In this document: piece by piece, positions 1 through 44,980 of the stretch
How the letters are laid out: every line of letters starts with the position of its first letter
How positions within the stretch are numbered: the stretch's first letter is position 1
DNA from: Eledone cirrhosa
Taxonomy: Eukaryota
NCBI GenBank assembly: GCA_964016885.1
Contig: OZ024740.1
Location: forward strand, 366,048,001 to 366,112,000
Length of the DNA: 64,000 nt
Direction of reading: 5' to 3'
Program-made: the position numbers and the translations under genes
The notes under the pieces: generated by a model
Database searches by the model: none
Told to the model about the DNA's origin: nothing
The model's input: only the letters and a program-made list of their open reading frames with translations

Positions 1-60
1 ATTTATAAATTTCTGGTTGGTTGGTTGGTTCCACAACCAGATAGTTGTTTATATATATAT

Positions 61-105
61 AGTCATAGTTCTTTCGTCACACACTCTGTGACCTCTTCAG
101 TGACT
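61..105 (-). ncRNA. Minimal type I hammerhead ribozyme motif (mirror copy)
   Basis: Exact reverse complement of 221-265. Confidence 0.8.
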
Positions 106-220
106 GGGGATTTCTTTCTTCGTTTCTGTGCCTTTCCTTTCTTCTATCCTACGCCATTTTTCAGAAAAATGGCGTAGGATAGAAGAAAGGAAAGGCACAG
201 AAACGAAGAAAGAAATCCCC

Positions 221-265
221 AGTCACTGAAGAGGTCACAGAGTGTGTGACGAAAGAACTATGACT
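221..265 (+). ncRNA. Minimal type I hammerhead ribozyme motif
   Basis: AGUCA-CUGAAGA-G-GUCACA-gagug-UGUGAC-GAAA-GaaC-UA^-UGACU. Intact core, 5-bp stem I, 6-bp stem II, vestigial stem III. Predicted cut after 260. Confidence 0.8.
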
Positions 266-480
266 ATATATATATAAACAACTATCTGGTTGTGGAACCA
301 ACCAACCAACCAGAAATTTATAAATTTGTAAATTTATAAATATATATTAAATTAAATTGAAGTGAAAGCAACTGGTGCGTGTGTTTCTTATTGGCAACAT
401 GACCCTCCCAAAGTATAACAATATCGGTTTCAACACACGATTTCAGATAAAGAATCTTGCTAAACAAATTCAGAAACGAA

Positions 481-4500: not shown

Positions 4501-6189
4501 CCTTTCAAATATCATTTAGCTCTAGGTCGATAATGATCAAAAAGTTTCTGATCCTGACCATCCCATGTTTTGTTCAAACAGTGCATCTAAAACTATACTT
4601 TTTAAAAGGACAAGCCTTCTTGTTAGCTCATTCAAATGTTGTTGTTGTTAAGTAATTTGGGTCAGCAGTGCTTTAGCCAATCAAAGGCATTGAAGTAGTT
4701 GATTGATACTTTTCAAATCTTGTAGTACAGATATGCTGAATTTTTTATGAAATTGTTCAATGTTTTACTTGTGTGGCATAAAGTTTGTGTGTGATGGCTG
4801 ACCTAATGTTACTATTAACATTGCAGTTTCAGGTTTGTATTTGTATGTTTTGAATCTGGTGTCGGTAATAACATTTTGAGAATATTTTTGTAGTGATGTC
4901 AATATGTTTACAAATTTATAGCTGGTTTGACATGTTGTTGCAGAAACTGTGTGTGTGTGTTGGATCAGACATTTTGAATCGCTAGAAATTTATATATATA
5001 TTTTACAATGGCACAACATTACATTTTTTCAACTTTTTTATACTAAAGTGACTAAAACTGCCCCGTGTTCTTTATTACAAAACTGATTTAAAATATTTAT
5101 ATTTATCTAAAAACTTTCTATCATAATTTTATGTACGAAGCTTTGTTTAGTTATGTTTCGAACACCAAATAAATAATGAGAAATTAAGTTAAATTATTAA
5201 AACTCTCAAATTCTTGATTATTTTCAAATCTATTAAAAAAAATCATAGGCAGTATTTTTTCTTAGAAATACGGGTTAAGGAGTCCATTCAATCTCAGAAC
5301 ATGAGTTCTACATATTTCATTGACCTCAGTAGAATAACAATTGTTGATAATAAGCATTAGGTCATTGATTTGATGGAAGAAAAGAGAAATTAGATTGTTT
5401 ATCTTCAAAACCTTTCTCAACATTATTAGCTATATAAGTGATAAAATAGAAATTATCCAGTAATTGAAACAACTTTATAGACAGCTTGCCTGGAGCATAC
5501 TTCTTTACAGCAGAAATATAGCTAATAAAAATAATGGATTATTCATAGGTTTCAATGATGAGTATCCTGTTGTTTATCTAACTTGATGTTCTACTTAAAT
5601 TAATATGCAAGTGACTGAGTATTCCACAAACATGTGTATCCTGAATATAATTCTAAAGTAAAATCAACATGGCACAATATATGACAATGTCAATCCTTTG
5701 AACTGAGGGTAACATACAATTCATCTGACAGGCTTCTGCATCAACCCTAGTAGTTCACTATACTTCCTTTTAACAACACCTAAAGGTAAAGTTGGCTTTG
5801 CCAGGGGTTTGAACTCAGAATGTAAAGGGTCATAACTGAATATTGTAAGGTATTTTATCTGACACTTAGAAATATGCCAATCATTGCTTTAGGTTTCTAA
5901 TTTAGCAATTTAAGGAGGAGAGGAAGTTGATTATATCAACTATTGTATTTGAATGGTACTTAATTTTATTCACTCCCAGAGAGATGAAAGGTATATTGAC
6001 TTTGGTGAAATTTGAATGTAGAAAAGCAAAGAGCTACAATTAAATATCTAGTGTTCTAACAATTCTGAAAATATAATAACAATAATAATGTGAAAGGTAA
6101 AGGCGAAAAAGGAAGCTTGGTACCAGTGACATTGTAAGTCATTTTTTTCCAGTTCAGTGAACTGAAGCAACATAAAATAATGTGCCTTG

Positions 6190-6736
6190 CTCACTTCTTC
6201 CCTGAGGGCCTCAAGCTGAACACCGATGGCTACATCTGCGTTCTGAGCGAGGTAGTAAAGCCCTGGATCGACCAGGTAGCTGCAGGTAGGCCGTACGTGT
6301 GGCAGCAAGACTCAGCGCCCTGCCATACCAGCCGAAAGACCCAAGCCTGGCTGTCAGAGAACTTCGTCGACCACACTTCACCTGACATCTGGCCTCCGAG
6401 CTCGCCTGACTGCAACCCCCTCGACTTCTTTGTGTGGGGCGCAGTGGAACGAGACACCAACAGATCTAGCTGCAATACAACAGAGAATGTTCTGAAGACC
6501 AGGATCACAAGTGCCTTTAGGGGCCTAAGTCGGGGGACAGTGACGAAGGCCTGTAGCCGGTTCCGAGGCCGCCTTGAGGCCGTCATCAAAGCCAATGGCG
6601 GGTTTATCGAGTGAGATCGAAAGAACAAGTCATGAAGACAAACTGACCCAAGTTTGATAAATAAATCTTAAAAAATAAAACTAGTGTTATTTTTTCCTAG
6701 ACAGTAATCTTGCGAACAAATATCGTTCGCACCCTG
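6190..6736 (+). mobile_element. 5'-truncated Tc1/mariner transposon, DD37D (maT) family
   Basis: ORF 6180-6614 contains WQQDSAPCH...WPPSSPDCNPLDFFVWG, with 37 residues between the 2nd and 3rd catalytic Asp. Right end is ...cgcaccctg followed by TA. Confidence 0.93.
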
Positions 6737-16130: not shown

Positions 16131-19100
16131 TGTTCATTTGTTTCTTTCTCCAGGGGTACTTTACCTGATTTTCTTTATTATTTATAATAATTGACTATTA
16201 ATTGGTCACTTGTGTGTGTCTCTCTGTGTGTGTGTGTGTGTCTGTGTGTGTGTGTGGGGGGGGGGGGGGCAATAATGTCAGCAAGAAAAAAAAAAAGACA
16301 ATATTCATAATAACCGCTAATATTTATAATTTGTGCACATGATATTGCATCTGCAACCAATGGTTTCATTAACAAAGCCTGCAGAAATTCAAGCAATAAC
16401 TTATCTTTCAGGCAAATGTGTATAAAAATAGCTGAATGGAAAAGAATGAGGATATAAAAAATATGAAAGAAGTGAAGCATAAGATTGAGATAACTAAGTT
16501 ATGTAAAACAATTTTTCTCCTGGAATTCTACTTTCTGTTGGAAGGAAATCAGAACAGAAAAGAAAGCAAGAAGAGAATAAAACAAACTGACACACATAAA
16601 TAAAAAAAGGAAATATTTGTGGTCAAAGAGTAAAAGTTAACTTAATGCTATAATAAAAACTGAAGTCAGCAGGTATATAAAAGTATTTGTTCATAATCAG
16701 AAGGTGAGTGTTTTATATATATATGTATAAAAAAATAAAAATATATAGCGTTTTTTTAACAAAAACAATATAAAAACACAGGTGGAGAAGTTAAAACAGC
16801 TCAAAATACAGTAATTTACTATAATAAACAGTACAAAAGGCCGTTTCATACTTCTTTGAAAGATTTTTTCAAACAAGCATGTCTACAAAATCCTATTGTG
16901 TTAAAAATAATAATTACTCATGAAGCAAATTATTCATTCATTAAAGTAATTACCAAATACGTTTTTACATTAAATATTGATTTACGACCGTTTCGTCCCC
17001 TTATTGGGACTTTTCAAAACCAGTTATTTATAAGTAAAAGTCTCATTATAAAACTCACCAAACCATCCAACAATCAGCAGTCAGAGAATTTGTTTACATT
17101 TGAAATTTAAAACGAAGCCATAATGTATGGAAAAAATATATGTTGTCTTACAACAGAACCACTCTAACACATCACTATAAAAACTTTTTTTTTCAAAATA
17201 AATAGCTGATAAATAGAAAAAGAGAAATATAATATTGATAAAAAATATTATAAAAGATAAAAATAAAAACATGTACATACACACACACACACACACACAC
17301 ATATACAAATTATATATACATACACACATGCACTCATAAATATATATACACACACACAAATACATACATACAGTACACACATACATATATTCATATATAC
17401 ACAAACAATAAAGACAACTGTGTATCTAATACTCACACATATATAGGTATGCACGAACATTAACTCAGATCATGAGCAGACTGTTTGTGAAACAATTGTA
17501 ACCAGGATTGATCAATAAATTTCTTAATGCAACACCTCCATTTTCTTCTTTATATATCATCATCATCAACGTTTAACGTCCGTGTTCCACGCTTGCATGG
17601 GTTTGGACGGGGGTAGTCCCACTTGAGGCAAGAGTGATTTTCTTGCTCGCATAGGACTGTCTTATATATATATATATATATAATCACTTAACAACCCAGC
17701 TAGCATTACTATTAATTTTGACTCGCATTATAAAATAAACTAAGGAGCACTAAAACTTAATGTGAATATTTTTAAATGAAAGGAAAATAATTATAGTTAA
17801 TTAATGCTAGATTTTTATAAAATTGAGGAAATTTTATAGGAGCTAATGTACCTCTCCTTTCCAACTCCACAACTTGGTTCTTGAGTGCTTTTGGCATAGA
17901 TCAGAGTTGAAGGGGCGTTCTCATTCCATTCATGTTTTACATTTAGATGTTTAACTTAGATATTGACCACAAAATACTGTCCATTCACTCCTGACTAACA
18001 TTTAAAAAATGTTTACACACCTTTATAATTATTACAAAGAAGAACAAACATGATATTGAACTTAAAAAAAATAAAGCTATAATTAAAACAAAATGTCAAT
18101 TGTTAATGCCTCATGTTCTCACAGTTGTAAAAACTAAATAAACATTTATAACACACGTCTGACAATGAACGTTTATGTAGTCAGGTTTGTCTTAAATGTA
18201 CAACAAACTTGTGAAATTATAAAAATGAAAACCACAGTCAACGCAGAGTGAGGGAGGGGGAGAGCGAAGAGGAGAGAGAGAGGTAGAGGGAAAATATGTA
18301 ACTAAAAGAAAGGAATGTGAGAGTATAGGAGAGAAAAATTGTGTGTGTATAACTTTGACTGATAGGTTTCGGCCAGTATTGGCCTAGGCCATGTCTAACT
18401 TAGAGAGAGAGAGCACGGGAGAGAGACAGAGAGTATGAGGGAGAAAGAGAGAGAAAGAGAGATCATGAGAAAGAGAGCGAGAGAGAAAAAGAGAAAGAGA
18501 CAAAGAGTAAGAGAGAGGGAAAGAGGGAGAGAGAAAGATCATGCAAGAATGCATTAGAGATTAACGGATAGTCGACTTTGGTAAAATCTAAGCACGGAAT
18601 ATTGATAGACATTGTATTATTATCATGTCCATGTATTATACCATGTAATACAGCCACAGCAGCAATGCACCTTCACCTCATCTACCAGCTGATGCTGTAT
18701 ATAACATTAGCAAGTGTAGTTTATTGTGATGACCTAAACTGAACAAGTTGGGTGTGTCCTGACAATGTCACAGCCTGCTAGCTTAGTATCTCCCCTCCCA
18801 TTATTCCATTCTAAGGAATGTAACACATTTTCTTGGAATGCTATGACAGTAGTGACATTCTTAACCTTCTTATCTTCTTCAATTGACACATAATCCAAGT
18901 GCAGAGATGATATATTCAAAAATTGATAAAAAAAAAAACAAAAGATTTACATTGTTATTTCTCTTTAATCCGATTTATTTATTTCTTTTGACCTAAGAGT
19001 AGAATTTCCAACTCCAACACACACCAAAGAAAGAGAAAGAAAACATATCATCTAAATATTACTATTCTTTAAAAAAAATACATTATATATATATATATAT

Positions 19101-19198
19101 ATATATATATACGTAGGTCCCGGGTTGAATCGGGGATAACCACAGTAAGTAAGGTACTCAATACATGGCAGAGTAAAAATTTTTTATTTTATAGAAGG

Positions 19199-19249
19199 AG
19201 CTTCTACAGGACTAGTACTGTTTCATTCAGATGAAATCTTCAGGAAGCT
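19199..19249 (-). ncRNA. Type I hammerhead ribozyme (mirror copy, host-gene sense strand)
   Basis: Exact reverse complement of 19246-19296. Confidence 0.85.
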
Positions 19250-19296
19250 TCCTGAAGATTTCATCTGAATGAAACAGTACTAGTCCTGTAGAAGCT
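19246..19296 (+). ncRNA. Type I hammerhead ribozyme
   Basis: AGCUUC-CUGAAGA-uUUC-aucu-GAAu-GAAA-CAG-uacuaguc-CUG-UA^-GAAGCU. Full core, 6-bp stem I, 4-bp stem III, GUA triplet, U.U at the base of stem II. Predicted cut after 19290. Confidence 0.85.
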
Positions 19297-20022
19297 CCTT
19301 CTATAAATATATATATATATATAGTATTTCATTCATTCATAAATCCATCATACTTGACATGCATTTATTTCCCAGTATCACCAAGGTAATCATCTTAGGT
19401 AGTTCTTGTATAAATTGCTTTGTATTCATGCCAGTTTTTAGAGTAGGTACACAGTATCCTTGTGTGTCGTGAGAAGTGACTAGAAGAGTTGGTATCAGGA
19501 AGAGAATTTGGCTGTAGAACACTGTCTAAAAGTATCCTGTCCAACCCATGCTAGTATGGAAACGTGGACATAAAAACAATAATGATGTATGTAGGGATGC
19601 ATCATCATAATTTTACATTTGTCTTTCTATGCTGGCATGTAGTGGACAAGACATTTTGAGACAGAGTCCTATGGCTAGATGCCTTCCCTGAGGTCAACAC
19701 TCACATTTTGCTATATATATCATCATCATCATCATTTTACGTCTGCTTTTCCCTGCTTACAAGGGTGGGACGGGTCTTATTCAGCACAGCATCTCTCCAC
19801 ATGTATATATATATATATACATACACAAACACACATATATCTAGGTATGTAGGAATTCTAAACAGTAAATAGCTGTAACAGTTGAGCGCTATAAATAATA
19901 ACTTAGAAAGTTGAGTAAATATGCTTAATGGTGGAAAAATGAAAACAGAAGCTGCTTCACTGGAGCAGCTGCAGGCCACTTTTTTCATCATTAAGCATAT
20001 TTTACCTGATCTTCTAAACTCG

Positions 20023-20234: not shown

Positions 20235-20900
20235 AGTATTGAAGTTTGCTTGAAGCATTGTGGAATAATAAATAAATATCTTTAAGTCGTTTGGAAGCCT
20301 CGACAATGCAAATGGGTAAATCTCCGGGTAACAAGATCCGGTGGTGGAGAGAGAGATGTAAGTGGGTGTACGTTGAGATGCGTGGTGTGTAAAGATGTGT
20401 AAATGTGTAGAAGAAAGAAGGGAAGAGTATAAAGCATAAAATAAAAATAACAACACAAGAGAGAGTTACCTTGGGAGAGATTTAATAGTCCCTATATATT
20501 TCGGATTCACATCCATCAACTGGGGGTTTTTTCCCGGGGTAAAGGTTGTCTGTCGGACAGGTGCGAAACGCGTCCTCCGAACAACAAACAGCGGAGGACG
20601 CGTTTCGCACCTGTCCGACAGACAACCTTTACCCTGGAAAAAAAAACCCCAGTTGATGGATGTGAATCCGAAATATATAGGGACTATTAAATCTCTCCCA
20701 AGGTAACTCTCTCTTGTGTTGTTATTTTTATTTTATGCTTTATACTCTTCCCTTCTTTCTTCTACACATTTACACATCTTTACACACCACGCATCTCAAC
20801 GTACACCCACTTACATCTCTCTCTCCACCACCGGATCCTGTTACCCGGAGATTTACCCATTTGCATTGTCGAGGCTTCCAAACGACTTAAAGATATTTAT
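20235..20900. mobile_element. Fold-back insertion, family E, with 12-bp TSD
   Basis: Near-identical ~308-bp arms 20272-20579 and 20592-20900, 12-nt loop, short left extension. Direct repeat aattatttagag at 20223-20234 and 20901-20912. Confidence 0.88.
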
Positions 20901-32167: not shown

Positions 32168-32888
32168 GAGGTTTTCAAATATTAATAATTTTCGATTCGT
32201 TTGCAATTATGCAAACAGCCTCTTTAAGGCTTGTGAATAGAATGACTGCCGTTCTTGCTCTTGTGTTGGCATATAAACAGAACAGCAGGCATTAATGTTT
32301 CTGGGTGATTATATATATTGTTATACTTTGGGAGGGTCATGTTGCCAATAAGAAACACACGCACCAGTTGCTTTCACTTCAATTTATTATAATAAATTTA
32401 TAAATTTAGGAATTTATAAATTTCTGGTTGGTTGGTTGGTTCCACAACCAGATAGTTGTTTATATATTGTCAAAGTTCTTTCGTCACACATTCTGTGACC
32501 TCTTCAGTGACTGGGGATTCTTTTCTTTGTTTTTGTGCCTTTCCTTTGTTCTGTCCTACGCCATTTTGTTTCTGTGTGTGTGTTGTGTGCTCAGTCTGCG
32601 CATGCGCCACATCCGGGTGTCTGTGTGTGTTTATATTTGTTTATTTATTTGTTTATTTACATGTTACCGGTTGGTTGTTTGTTCTATGTGCATGTGTGTT
32701 TTCATTTTGTCCTTAATTGTAAGTTGTGATGTTGCTGTTCCACTCATATTTTCTATTTAATTTTGGTTGTAATTCTTTTATGTTTATTGCCTCTGTGATT
32801 TGTCTAAACATTGCGTCTTTTCTGTGTGTAGATTCTATTTTTATTTCTATGTTCTCTAATTTACCCTTATGTTCTATTTTAGCATGTT

Positions 32889-33089
32889 AGTAAAGAATCA
32901 TCTGTACTCTACCAACATGCTAAAATAGAACATAAGGGTAAATTAGAGAACATAGAAATAAAAATAGAATCTACACACAGAAAAGACGCAATGTTTAGAC
33001 AAATCACAGAGGCAATAAACATAAAAGAATTACAACCAAAATTAAATAGAAAATATGAGTGGAACAGCAACATCACAACTTACAATTAA
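32889..33089 (+). pseudogene. C-terminal fragment of Penelope-like GIY-YIG endonuclease
   Basis: Manual translation: SKESSVLYQHAKIEHKGKLENIEIKIESTHRKDAMFRQITEAINIKELQPKLNRKYEWNSNITTYN*. Fits the PLE pattern S-x-L-x-x-H...R-x-x-x-E-A-x-x-I...P-x-L-N. Confidence 0.85.
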
Positions 33090-33269
33090 GGACAAAATGA
33101 AAACACACACACACAGAACAAACAACCAACCAGTAACATGTAAATAAACAAATAAATAAATGAACATAAACACACACAGACACCCGGATGTGGTGCATGC
33201 GCAGACTGAGCACACAACACACACACAGAAACAAAATGGCGTAGGACAGAACAAAGAAAAGAATCCCCA

Positions 33270-33312
33270 GTCACTGAAGAGGTCACAGAATGTGTGACGA
33301 AAGAACTTTGAC
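33270..33312 (+). ncRNA. Minimal type I hammerhead motif (mirror copy at 32469-32511, minus strand)
   Basis: GUCA-CUGAAGA-G-GUCACA-gaaug-UGUGAC-GAAA-GaaC-UU^-UGAC. Confidence 0.78.
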
Positions 33313-33520
33313 AATATATAAACAACTATCTGGTTGTGGAACCAACCAACCAACCAGAAATTTATAAATTCCTAAATTTATAAATTTATTATAATAAATT
33401 GAAGTGAAAGCAACTGGTGCGTGTGTTTCTTATTGGCAACATGACCCTCCCAAAGTATAACAATATCGGTTTCAACACACGTTTTCAGATAAAGAATCTT
33501 GCTAAACAAATTCAGAAACG

Positions 33521-34619: not shown

Positions 34620-36206
34620 ATAACTGTTTCTAATTCATACATAAAGTCAAAAAAATGTTTTTCTTTTTTGGGGAGGAGGAGGGGGGGGGGGGGGTAAATC
34701 GACACCAGTGCATTACTGGTACTTTATTTTATCAAGCCTGTAAGGACGAAAGGCAAATTTAACCTTGGCAAGATTTTAACTCAGAATGTAAAGGGATGTG
34801 TATATGTCACAAAACATCAGACAATCTACTGACAATAATAATTGTTTCTACTATTGGCACAAGGCCAGCAATTATCCAGTACATTACTGGTACTTTATTT
34901 TATCGACCCCGTAAGGATGAAAGGCAAAGTTAACCTCGGCGGGATTTGAACTCAGAATGGCAAGAGCCGTAACTATGCCTCAAAGCATGGCGTCCGACCC
35001 TCTACCGATACTGCCAAAATAATGGTTTCTTATATAGTCACAAGGCCAGCAATTTTGGGGGAGGGGAAAGTTGATTAAATCGACCCCAGTGCATTACTGA
35101 TACTTTATTTTATCGACCCCGTAAGGATGAAAGGCAAAGTTAACCTCGGCGGGATTTGAACTCAGAATGGCAAGGGCCGTAACTATGCCTCAAAGCATGG
35201 CGTCCGACCCTCTACCGATACTGCCAAAATAATGGTTTCTTATATAGTCACAAGGCCAGCAATTTTGGGGGAGGGGAAAGTTGATTAAATCGACCCCAGT
35301 GCATTACTGATACTTTATTTTATCGACCCCGTAAGGATGAAAGGCAAAGTTAACCTCGGCGGGATTTGAACTCAGATCATAAAGGGCCGTAACTCTAAGC
35401 TGCAAAGCATGGTGTCCGACCCTCTACCGATACTGCCAATCCACCGCCCTACTGATGATAATAATAATAATGGTTTCTGATTTAGGCACAATGCCAATAA
35501 ATTTTTGGGGAAAGTCGATTAAACTGACCCCAGTGCATTGCTGGTGCTTTATTTTATATACTATAGGCATAAGGCCAGCAATTTGGTGGGTGGGGAAAGT
35601 TACTGAGATTTGGGACATTAACAAATGCACCAGCTCCCTGAGTGAACAGTTTTCTTAAATTTTACATTATGCCTTTTAGTACAAAACATGTTTTTATATA
35701 GGTATTGGGTTAAAGCTTAGTACAAAACTGATCAAGAACCACAGGTCTAGAGAAATGTTAAAAAAGGTAAAAATTGATTTTCTTTATGAAAAAAAAAAAA
35801 ATTGCACAAGGCCAGCAATTTGGGAGAAGGTGAAAGTTGATTATATCAACCCCAGTACTTAATTGATACTTTATTTTATCAACCCTGGAAGGATGAAAGG
35901 CAAAGTTAACCTTGGAGGGATTTGAAGTCCCAGTGAAAATAGCTGGAACAAATACCGCAAAAGAATTTTGTTCAGCCCTCTACCAATTCAGCCAATCCAC
36001 CACCAAACAGAGAAGTGGAAGGCAAAGTTAATTGTTTCTACTATTGGCACAAGGCCAGAAATTACCCAGTACATTACTGGTACTTTATTTTATCGACCCC
36101 GTAAGGATGAAAGGCAAAGTTAATCCTCAGCGGGATTTGAACTCAGAATGGCAAGGGCCGTAACTATGCGTCAAAGCATGGCGTCCGAACCTCTACCGAT
36201 ACTGCC
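34620..36206 (-). mobile_element. Cluster of ~7 co-oriented SINE family 1 copies, including a 210-bp-period tandem array
   Basis: Near-identical sequence restarts at 34891, 35101 and 35311. Further copies at ~34620, ~35470, ~35805 and ~36030. Confidence 0.9.
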
Positions 36207-44534: not shown

Positions 44535-44980
44535 ATAATAATAATGATTTCTAATCTAGGCACAAGTCATTCAATTTGTGAGGAGGTTAAAGTTGATTAT
44601 ATCGATTCCAGTATTTGACTGGTACTTTATTTTATCAACACAAGAAGGACGAAAGGTAAAGTTGATCTTGGCAGCATTTGAACATAGAATGTAAAGAGTT
44701 GTAACTATATGCTGCAAAGCATATTGTCCGACGCTCTACCAATACTGCCAATACCTTCATAATAATTGTTTCTACTTTAGGCACAAGGCCAGTAATTTGA
44801 AGGGGAGGGGAAAGTCAATTAAATCGACGCCAGCGTATCACTGGTGTTTTATTTTATTGATCCCATAAGGATGAAAGGCAAAGCTAATCTCGGCAGGATT
44901 TGAACTCAAAAGTAAAGGGCCATGACTATGCCGCAAAGCATATTGTCCAACACTCTACTGATACTGCCACTCCACCACCT
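44535..44980 (-). mobile_element. Two tandem SINE family 1 copies
   Basis: Family similarity; another copy lies at 45538-45761. Confidence 0.85.

What the first reader, a model, noticed from the sequence alone, without database searches (positions are those of the whole stretch)
19188..19307. Perfect 120-bp palindrome made almost entirely of two back-to-back intact hammerheads
Seen: the palindrome centre (AAGCTT) lies inside the 5' strand of stem I, so the + and - ribozymes overlap at their 5' ends. Core CUGAAGA/GAAA/GUA is complete and the stem III loop contains a self-complementary ACUAGU. Known: self-complementary stem III regions allow dimeric hammerhead cleavage. Inference: the best candidate here for an active ribozyme; identical arms suggest a recent insertion.
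Basis: partly seen in the sequence, partly recalled or inferred. Interest (0 to 1): 0.8.

Follow-up and report, generated by a model that had tools for sequence, protein, structure and literature searches.

The report
Penelope retroelement palindrome marking transcription start
This palindrome is one of at least 129 same-centre insertions of a young Penelope-like jumping gene; its centre sits where the element's RNA likely begins, so it is likely a footprint of how the element copies itself rather than a working ribozyme.

Summary
The perfect 120-bp palindrome and both hammerhead cores are real. It is not a unique locus. It is part of a 196-bp insertion in (TA)n, with a tail on one side only, made by a young Hydra-clade Penelope-like element (RT plus GIY-YIG-type endonuclease, read from motifs). 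The genome holds 2,232 exact cores and 129 exact centres. The centre is a wall: 42 of 90 sampled insertions stop at -1..+2 of hammerhead stem I, 5 in the 37 nt upstream, and 1 at the cleavage site. The parent has TATAAATA at -29 (sister family -30), and junctions carry an excess G at -1. So +1 is likely a capped transcription start, and the copied RNA was uncut. In the sister family both arms share one source (23 of 23 pairs) and only one carries the tail. Likely mechanism: both target strands prime at the element's two internal RT start sites, and the two cDNAs join at the RNA 5' end. This copy lacks the promoter, and read-through RNA is predicted to form a 58-bp hairpin, so it is a poor ribozyme candidate. 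No usable RNA data. No related earlier scan finding.

The parts
19084..19111 (.). (TA)14 target microsatellite, tail side
   Evidence: 85 of 90 sampled tail ends run into TATA/TACA
19112..19175 (-). PLE 'tail'; its end is inferred RT start site 1; in tandem copies it runs on into the ORF
   Evidence: L145-L147; 1,444 exact tail ends
19176..19198 (-). 3' flank of the hammerhead and A-rich linker; inferred RT start site 2, where tail-less arms meet (TA)n
19199..19249 (-). Type I hammerhead of the tail-bearing arm; +1 = 19249; predicted cut 19205/19204
19246..19249 (.). Head-to-head junction: 4-nt AGCT overlap at +1 of both arms; inferred RNA 5' end (TATA at -29 in the parent, absent here)
19246..19296 (+). 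Type I hammerhead of the tail-less arm; +1 = 19246; predicted cut 19290/19291
19297..19307 (+). End of the tail-less arm in the A-rich linker
19308..19323 (.). (TA)8 target microsatellite, tail-less side; no target-site duplication can be told apart

Best explanation
The palindrome is a short head-to-head insertion of a young Hydra-clade Penelope-like retrotransposon in a (TA)n tract, likely made when the element's protein reverse-transcribed the uncut, capped 5' end of its RNA twice and the two cDNAs were joined where the RNA begins. Shown: family, parent ORF, one-sided tail, pile-up of arm ends at the first base of hammerhead stem I, conserved TATA box 29-30 nt upstream, common source of both arms. 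Inferred: (1) a TATA/Inr promoter in the element's 3' end starts a capped RNA at that base; (2) the endonuclease nicks both strands of (TA)n; (3) one strand primes at the tail end, the other at the A-rich linker; (4) both cDNAs run off at the cap, often with an extra base, and are joined by microhomology (AGCT here) or short templated inserts. The copy has no promoter of its own; if read through it would form a long dsRNA hairpin, not a ribozyme.
For: Parent: copies with the same hammerhead and tail carry open frames of 754 and 823 aa with Hydra motifs. Wall: 42 of 90 insertions at -1..+2, 13 at +3..+10, 5 at -38..-2, 1 at the cut site, 16 long. Sister family (74% aa), whose +1 sequence AGAT is not palindromic, shows the same wall: 23 of 59 arms at -1..+2, 14 at +3..+9, 3 at -17..-4, 19 parent-type. 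TATAAATA at -29 and -30 and CCC|AG are kept while the spacer diverges. G at -1 in 27 of 47 informative family-A ends vs 15% background; the parent has C. 60 of 90 have an inverted arm and 0 of 60 carry a tail; sister pairs 23 of 23 have one tail and concordant marker, p about 0.003. The tail-less arm reaches further 5' in 23 pairs vs 13, which simple snap-back cannot give. In vitro a Poseidon PLE extends both strands, starts RT at two internal sites that define the tail, and uses uncut RNA (PMC11167929).
Against: No 5'-end RNA data: the start site and cap are inferred from DNA only. The G excess is partly explained by inserts templated from nearby sequence (13 of 54 hand-counted G cases), and the small sister sample shows no excess (3 of 9). 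Family-A arms share only 3 variants against 47 differences (0.54 expected if independent). Post-insertion deletions at palindrome centres could also make the tail-less arm longer. Concordance shows one source locus, not one molecule. Pfam found no RT or GIY-YIG hit on the four parent ORF pieces given; the domains were read by eye against published Hydra proteins. No tree was built.
Confidence: 0.7

Rival explanations
1. Same element and same start site, but one cDNA primed at the tail runs off the RNA 5' end, snaps back and copies itself to the A-rich linker; centres are later revised by deletion.
For: Explains one tail per pair and concordant arms. Self-priming was proposed for PLE junction palindromes, there on an antisense template (PMC3846280 passages).
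Against: The second arm cannot be longer than the first, yet the tail-less arm is longer in 23 of 57 pairs. Long direct copies also end at the linker without a tail, so the linker is an independent start site, as in PMC11167929.
Confidence: 0.2
2. The wall is set by hammerhead structure or splicing, not by a promoter: the cDNA's own stem I closes at +1 and ends synthesis, or CAG| is a 3' splice site as in D. virilis Penelope.
For: The wall coincides with stem I's first base in both families. An intron end maps to the 5' end of helix I in D. virilis (PMC4209133). CAG is conserved.
Against: Arms keep the AG (53 ends at +1/+2 vs 5 at +3). Junction inserts match local sequence and no common upstream exon appears in 13 inserts examined. 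It does not explain the conserved TATA spacing. In a third family 6 of 30 short ends lie about 50-80 nt upstream of its hammerhead (the anchor could not show ends nearer the hammerhead).
Confidence: 0.15
3. A non-autonomous master palindrome (MITE- or SINE-like) is copied as a unit.
For: 129 loci share the exact centre; 40 of 40 scored hits are identical over 120 bp.
Against: Only 6 of 90 tail-anchored copies have that exact overlap; junctions and tail-less ends vary copy by copy. AGCT microhomology makes this junction recur. The sister family, without a palindromic +1, shows varied junctions. No promoter in the unit.
Confidence: 0.07
4. One reading: this locus yields an active (dimeric) hammerhead.
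For: Complete core; one compensatory stem I change and variable loop II among subfamilies; U.U at the stem II base matches 14 of 25 published Hydra hammerheads.
Against: Hairpin about 79 kcal/mol more stable; no promoter; even the isolated 51-mer prefers another fold by 3 kcal/mol in ViennaRNA. A Poseidon hammerhead cut only with protein present.
Confidence: 0.05
5. Assembly or library fold-back artefact.
For: Perfect palindromes are a known long-read artefact (own knowledge).
Against: Asymmetric flanks and one-sided tail, arms diverged by about 1.5% across the family, fixed biological centre; short-read contigs from another sample cross the centre (records 7 and 15).
Confidence: 0.01

Closest known systems
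Hydra-clade Penelope-like elements (Craig et al. 2021, PMC8557442; includes Hydra-1_Obim)
   Same: RT with C-terminal endonuclease, DKT, CxCX5C linker, CxxC and CxH motifs, (TA)n target, 3' type I hammerhead often with U.U at the stem II base, pLTR tandems, inverted 5'-truncated copies, one-sided tail.
   Different: A different family from Hydra-1_Obim (other hammerhead and protein). RWR for RWK. Unit about 3.8 kb with a long microsatellite-rich 3' UTR. Loop III is 8 nt (1-3 nt in the published table). About half of sampled insertions stop at one base; I found no such report in the passages read.
Poseidon PLE of Anolis, in vitro (Frangieh et al. 2024, PMC11167929)
   Same: Two internal RT start sites bounding the tail, both target strands extended, AT-rich target, uncut RNA as template.
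   Different: Other clade. The paper does not treat inverted insertions or the RNA 5' end; here the genome suggests each start site is used once per insertion.
Adineta vaga Penelope elements (Arkhipova et al. 2013, PMC3846280)
   Same: Head-to-head inverted pLTRs with junction palindromes, tail on one side, putative TATA plus Inr in the pLTR.
   Different: Few copies, no endpoint statistics; explained there by self-priming on an antisense template, whereas the data here point to a sense RNA's 5' end.
PLE min-hammerheads and non-LTR retrozymes (Cervera and de la Pena 2014, PMC4209133; bioRxiv 10.64898/2026.07.22.740005)
   Same: PLE-derived type I hammerheads, palindromic loop III, opposite-strand pairs 100-700 bp apart noted in Schistosoma.
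   Different: Here stem III has 4 bp and needs no dimer on paper; the unit is an overlapping inverted pair, not a tandem array.

Membership tests
Hydra-clade PLE | Single ORF, RT with C-terminal GIY-YIG-type endonuclease | tested here: met
   Open frames of 754 and 823 aa with YRDDG and YIGMT motifs beside the same hammerhead, read by eye against published proteins; Pfam gave no hit on four parent pieces
Hydra-clade PLE | DKG modified to DKT | tested here: met
   SDKTKN in L141, L142
Hydra-clade PLE | N-terminal RWK motif | tested here: inconclusive
   RWR, a conservative variant
Hydra-clade PLE | CxCX5C linker; CCHH absent; CxxC and CxH around the conserved E and N | tested here: met
   CNCPDKTTC, CDLC, CMH; no CxxC before YIG
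Hydra-clade PLE | Insertion into (TA)n | tested here: met
   85 of 90 tail ends
Hydra-clade PLE | Canonical hammerhead near the 3' end | tested here: met
Hydra-clade PLE | Generally under 3 kb (a tendency, not a diagnostic) | tested here: not met
   Hammerhead-to-hammerhead 3.8 kb in L146, about 5 kb in the sister family
Hydra-clade PLE | Placement in the RT phylogeny | not tested
   Reference proteins not available as tool sequences
Type I hammerhead ribozyme | CUGANGA / GAAA / NUH core with three stems | tested here: met
   one compensatory change, not significant on 3 rows (171 of 500 shuffles)
Type I hammerhead ribozyme | G10.1-C11.1 pair | tested here: not met
   U.U instead, as in 14 of 25 published Hydra families
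Type I hammerhead ribozyme | Self-cleavage | not testable with these tools
   Indirect only: 1 of 90 insertions ends at the cut site
Non-LTR retrozyme | Head-to-tail tandem units each with a hammerhead | tested here: not met
   Single inverted pair at this locus
MITE / DNA transposon | Fixed terminal inverted repeats at both ends | tested here: not met
   One-sided tail, variable tail-less end and centre

The most novel reading that the evidence does not exclude
Penelope-like elements build their hallmark inverted repeats by twin internal priming: the two nicked target strands use the element's two RT start sites on capped sense RNA from one source, both cDNAs run off the cap and are end-joined. 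In this family the promoter fires exactly at the hammerhead's first base, so thousands of tiny palindromes record the start site, the cap and an uncut ribozyme.
Probability: 0.5. Interest if true: 0.65.

Novelty: new member of a known kind. Interest (0 to 1): 0.45.

Why it matters
How PLEs make inverted pLTRs and what their hammerheads do are stated as open in the papers read (PMC8557442, PMC11167929, PMC3846280). These two families give large in-genome samples that make a specific model testable with an existing in vitro system, and they argue that templates are copied uncut. The inserts are also a predicted source of hundreds of perfect dsRNA hairpins. As a ribozyme locus it is ordinary.

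Tried and rejected
Rfam: no hammerhead model hit; miRNA hits reflect the hairpin only. Pfam: no relevant hit on the parent ORF pieces. Expression: no RNA holder listed. In one run only guessed to be RNA, contig depth fell about 100-fold just upstream of +1; contigs cannot show starts, so this is not used as evidence. Raw reads available were RAD-seq DNA. Idea that the hotspot comes from the AGCT palindrome itself: rejected by the sister family. Idea that cleavage defines insertion ends: rejected (1 of 90). Sister cap-G test: 3 of 9, no excess; (2,620 matches) was not tallied because many rows are explained by arm overlap. Earlier scan notes: one unrelated hit, two blanks. Lunse et al. 2017 on dimeric PLE hammerheads was not held; known only from a review's passages. 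bioRxiv supplements were not seen; other supplements of the cited papers, apart from Craig et al., were not opened.

Full report
Observation. 19188-19307 is a perfect 120-bp palindrome. Rfam has no hammerhead hit.

It is a repeat. A search of the own genome (3.0 Gb) gave 525 candidates; all 40 scored were identical over 120 bp, on 14 contigs. All 16 loci examined (15 fetched plus the window) have the same layout: (TA)n, a tail on one side only, the palindrome, (TA)n. Exact counts: 2,232 hammerhead cores, 1,444 tail ends, 587 cores with parent sequence upstream, 129 exact centres; reversed-pattern controls were 0.

Parent. Longer copies extend through a microsatellite-rich 3' UTR into an ORF. 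L141 and L142 hold open frames of 754 and 823 aa with DKT, RWR, YRDDG, CxCX5C, YIG, CxxC and CxH. These are the Hydra-clade features in Craig et al. 2021 (PMC8557442; I read passages, section 11, supplement search hits and supplement part 2). Head-to-tail pLTRs, where the tail runs into the ORF, are seen in L145-L147. Pfam recognised none of four parent pieces. The family differs from their Hydra-1_Obim. That the host is an octopus-like mollusc is my guess from composition and comes from no call.

The centre is a wall. I sampled 90 of the first 100 tail hits listed on contig C1 (of 1,444). Left out: 5 in loci already held as long or tandem copies, 3 in one cluster and the last 2, so long copies are slightly under-counted. 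The 5'-most point reached by either arm was -1..+2 in 42, +3..+10 in 13, +11..+42 in 11, the cut site in 1, tail only in 2, -38..-2 in 5 (one set by hand) and further upstream in 16, whose true ends were not mapped (+1 = first base of stem I). 60 of 90 have an inverted arm, 0 of 60 with a tail, and only 6 have the exact AGCT overlap. A sister family (74% aa identity; 4,001 cores) has non-palindromic AGAT at +1 and the same wall: of 59 arms, 23 end at -1..+2, 14 at +3..+9, 3 at -17..-4, and 19 are parent-type.

Why there. Both parents keep TATAAATA at -29 or -30 and CCC|AG at +1 while the spacer differs. That is the usual TATA-to-initiator spacing of RNA polymerase II (own knowledge). At family-A ends not covered by the other arm, -1 is G in 27 of 47 (background 15%, parent C), and +1 is replaced in 18 of 47, by T in 13. 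By hand, 54 of the first 100 of 261 genome-wide ends with a replaced +1 have G at -1, 13 of them explained by the other arm. This fits copying of a cap (known for L1, recalled) but is not proof; the sister sample shows 3 of 9. A splice-site reading is weaker: arms keep the AG and 13 junction inserts match local sequence, with no shared exon.

How two arms arise. In the sister family 23 of 23 inverted pairs agree at a biallelic marker (20 A/A, 3 T/T; p about 0.003) and each has exactly one tail. Family-A pairs share 3 variants against 0.54 expected, beside 47 differences in 2,673 bases, 8 of them from one misaligned pair. The tail-less arm reaches further 5' in 23 pairs, the tail arm in 13, equal in 21; 3 pairs were excluded. 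Frangieh et al. 2024 (PMC11167929; main text read) show a Poseidon protein extending both target strands from two internal RNA sites that bound the tail, using uncut RNA, with a hammerhead that cuts only when protein is present. Twin priming at those two sites, run-off at the cap and end-joining fits all of the above (inference). Arkhipova et al. 2013 (PMC3846280; passages) describe the same architecture and a putative TATA/Inr but propose self-priming on an antisense template.

The ribozyme. It looks genuine: one compensatory stem I change and loop II variation with the stems kept (not significant on 3 rows), and the U.U at the stem II base recurs in 14 of 25 published Hydra families. This locus is a poor candidate. 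The TATA is replaced by the inverted arm, and the read-through hairpin (-117 kcal/mol) is far below the hammerhead fold (-39); the isolated 51-mer also prefers another fold by 3 kcal/mol, in a model without tertiary contacts. PLE hammerheads cut weakly in vitro (PMC4209133; parts 1-2 of 4 read). Promoter-bearing parent copies are the ones to test.

Novelty. Architecture, clade and hammerhead are known. Searches found no paper mapping PLE inversion centres to a TATA-defined start or showing one start site per strand; the library lacks most subscription journals. For bioRxiv 10.64898/2026.07.22.740005 I read part 1 of 5; for PMC6765202 and PMC2377424, passages. Verdict: new member of a known kind, interest 0.45, resting on the mechanistic footprint and not on the ribozyme.

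Noticed in passing
window 1-325 and 32392-33389: Inverted pairs of a third hammerhead-bearing family (cores at 226, 100, 33274, 32507; 16,467 motif hits). The 1-325 centre lies just upstream of a YY1-like motif (label recalled), about 60 nt before the hammerhead; 6 of 30 sampled copies end within 30 nt upstream of that motif.
   Followed up: partly
window 20272-20900: 261-bp arms, 99% complementary, around a 107-nt spacer with nested small palindromes; no hammerhead core matched my pattern. Probably another inverted retroelement end; unidentified.
   Followed up: no
G000:C1:83679791-83691708 and L085 (C1:118475152-118477635): About 1.07-kb tandem arrays containing these hammerheads (12 units of the sister family; 3 units of this family), retrozyme- or satellite-like.
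   Followed up: no
L015, L018, L025 flanks: Further hammerhead subfamilies with other loop II sequences but the same three stem II pairs and CTAG in loop III, often in the same (TA)n tracts.
   Followed up: partly
flanks of L023, L035, L093, L157: Another short repeat beside (TA)n shares an 11-nt motif with this element's tail; it may belong to a related family or to the parent's UTR.
   Followed up: no
window 6138-6614 (+) and 58571-58933 (+): Fragments resembling a Tc1/mariner transposase and a LINE RT C-terminus (labels recalled).
   Followed up: no
window 34876-35439 and 44538-44969: Tandem 210-222 bp units that look SINE-derived (label recalled).
   Followed up: no
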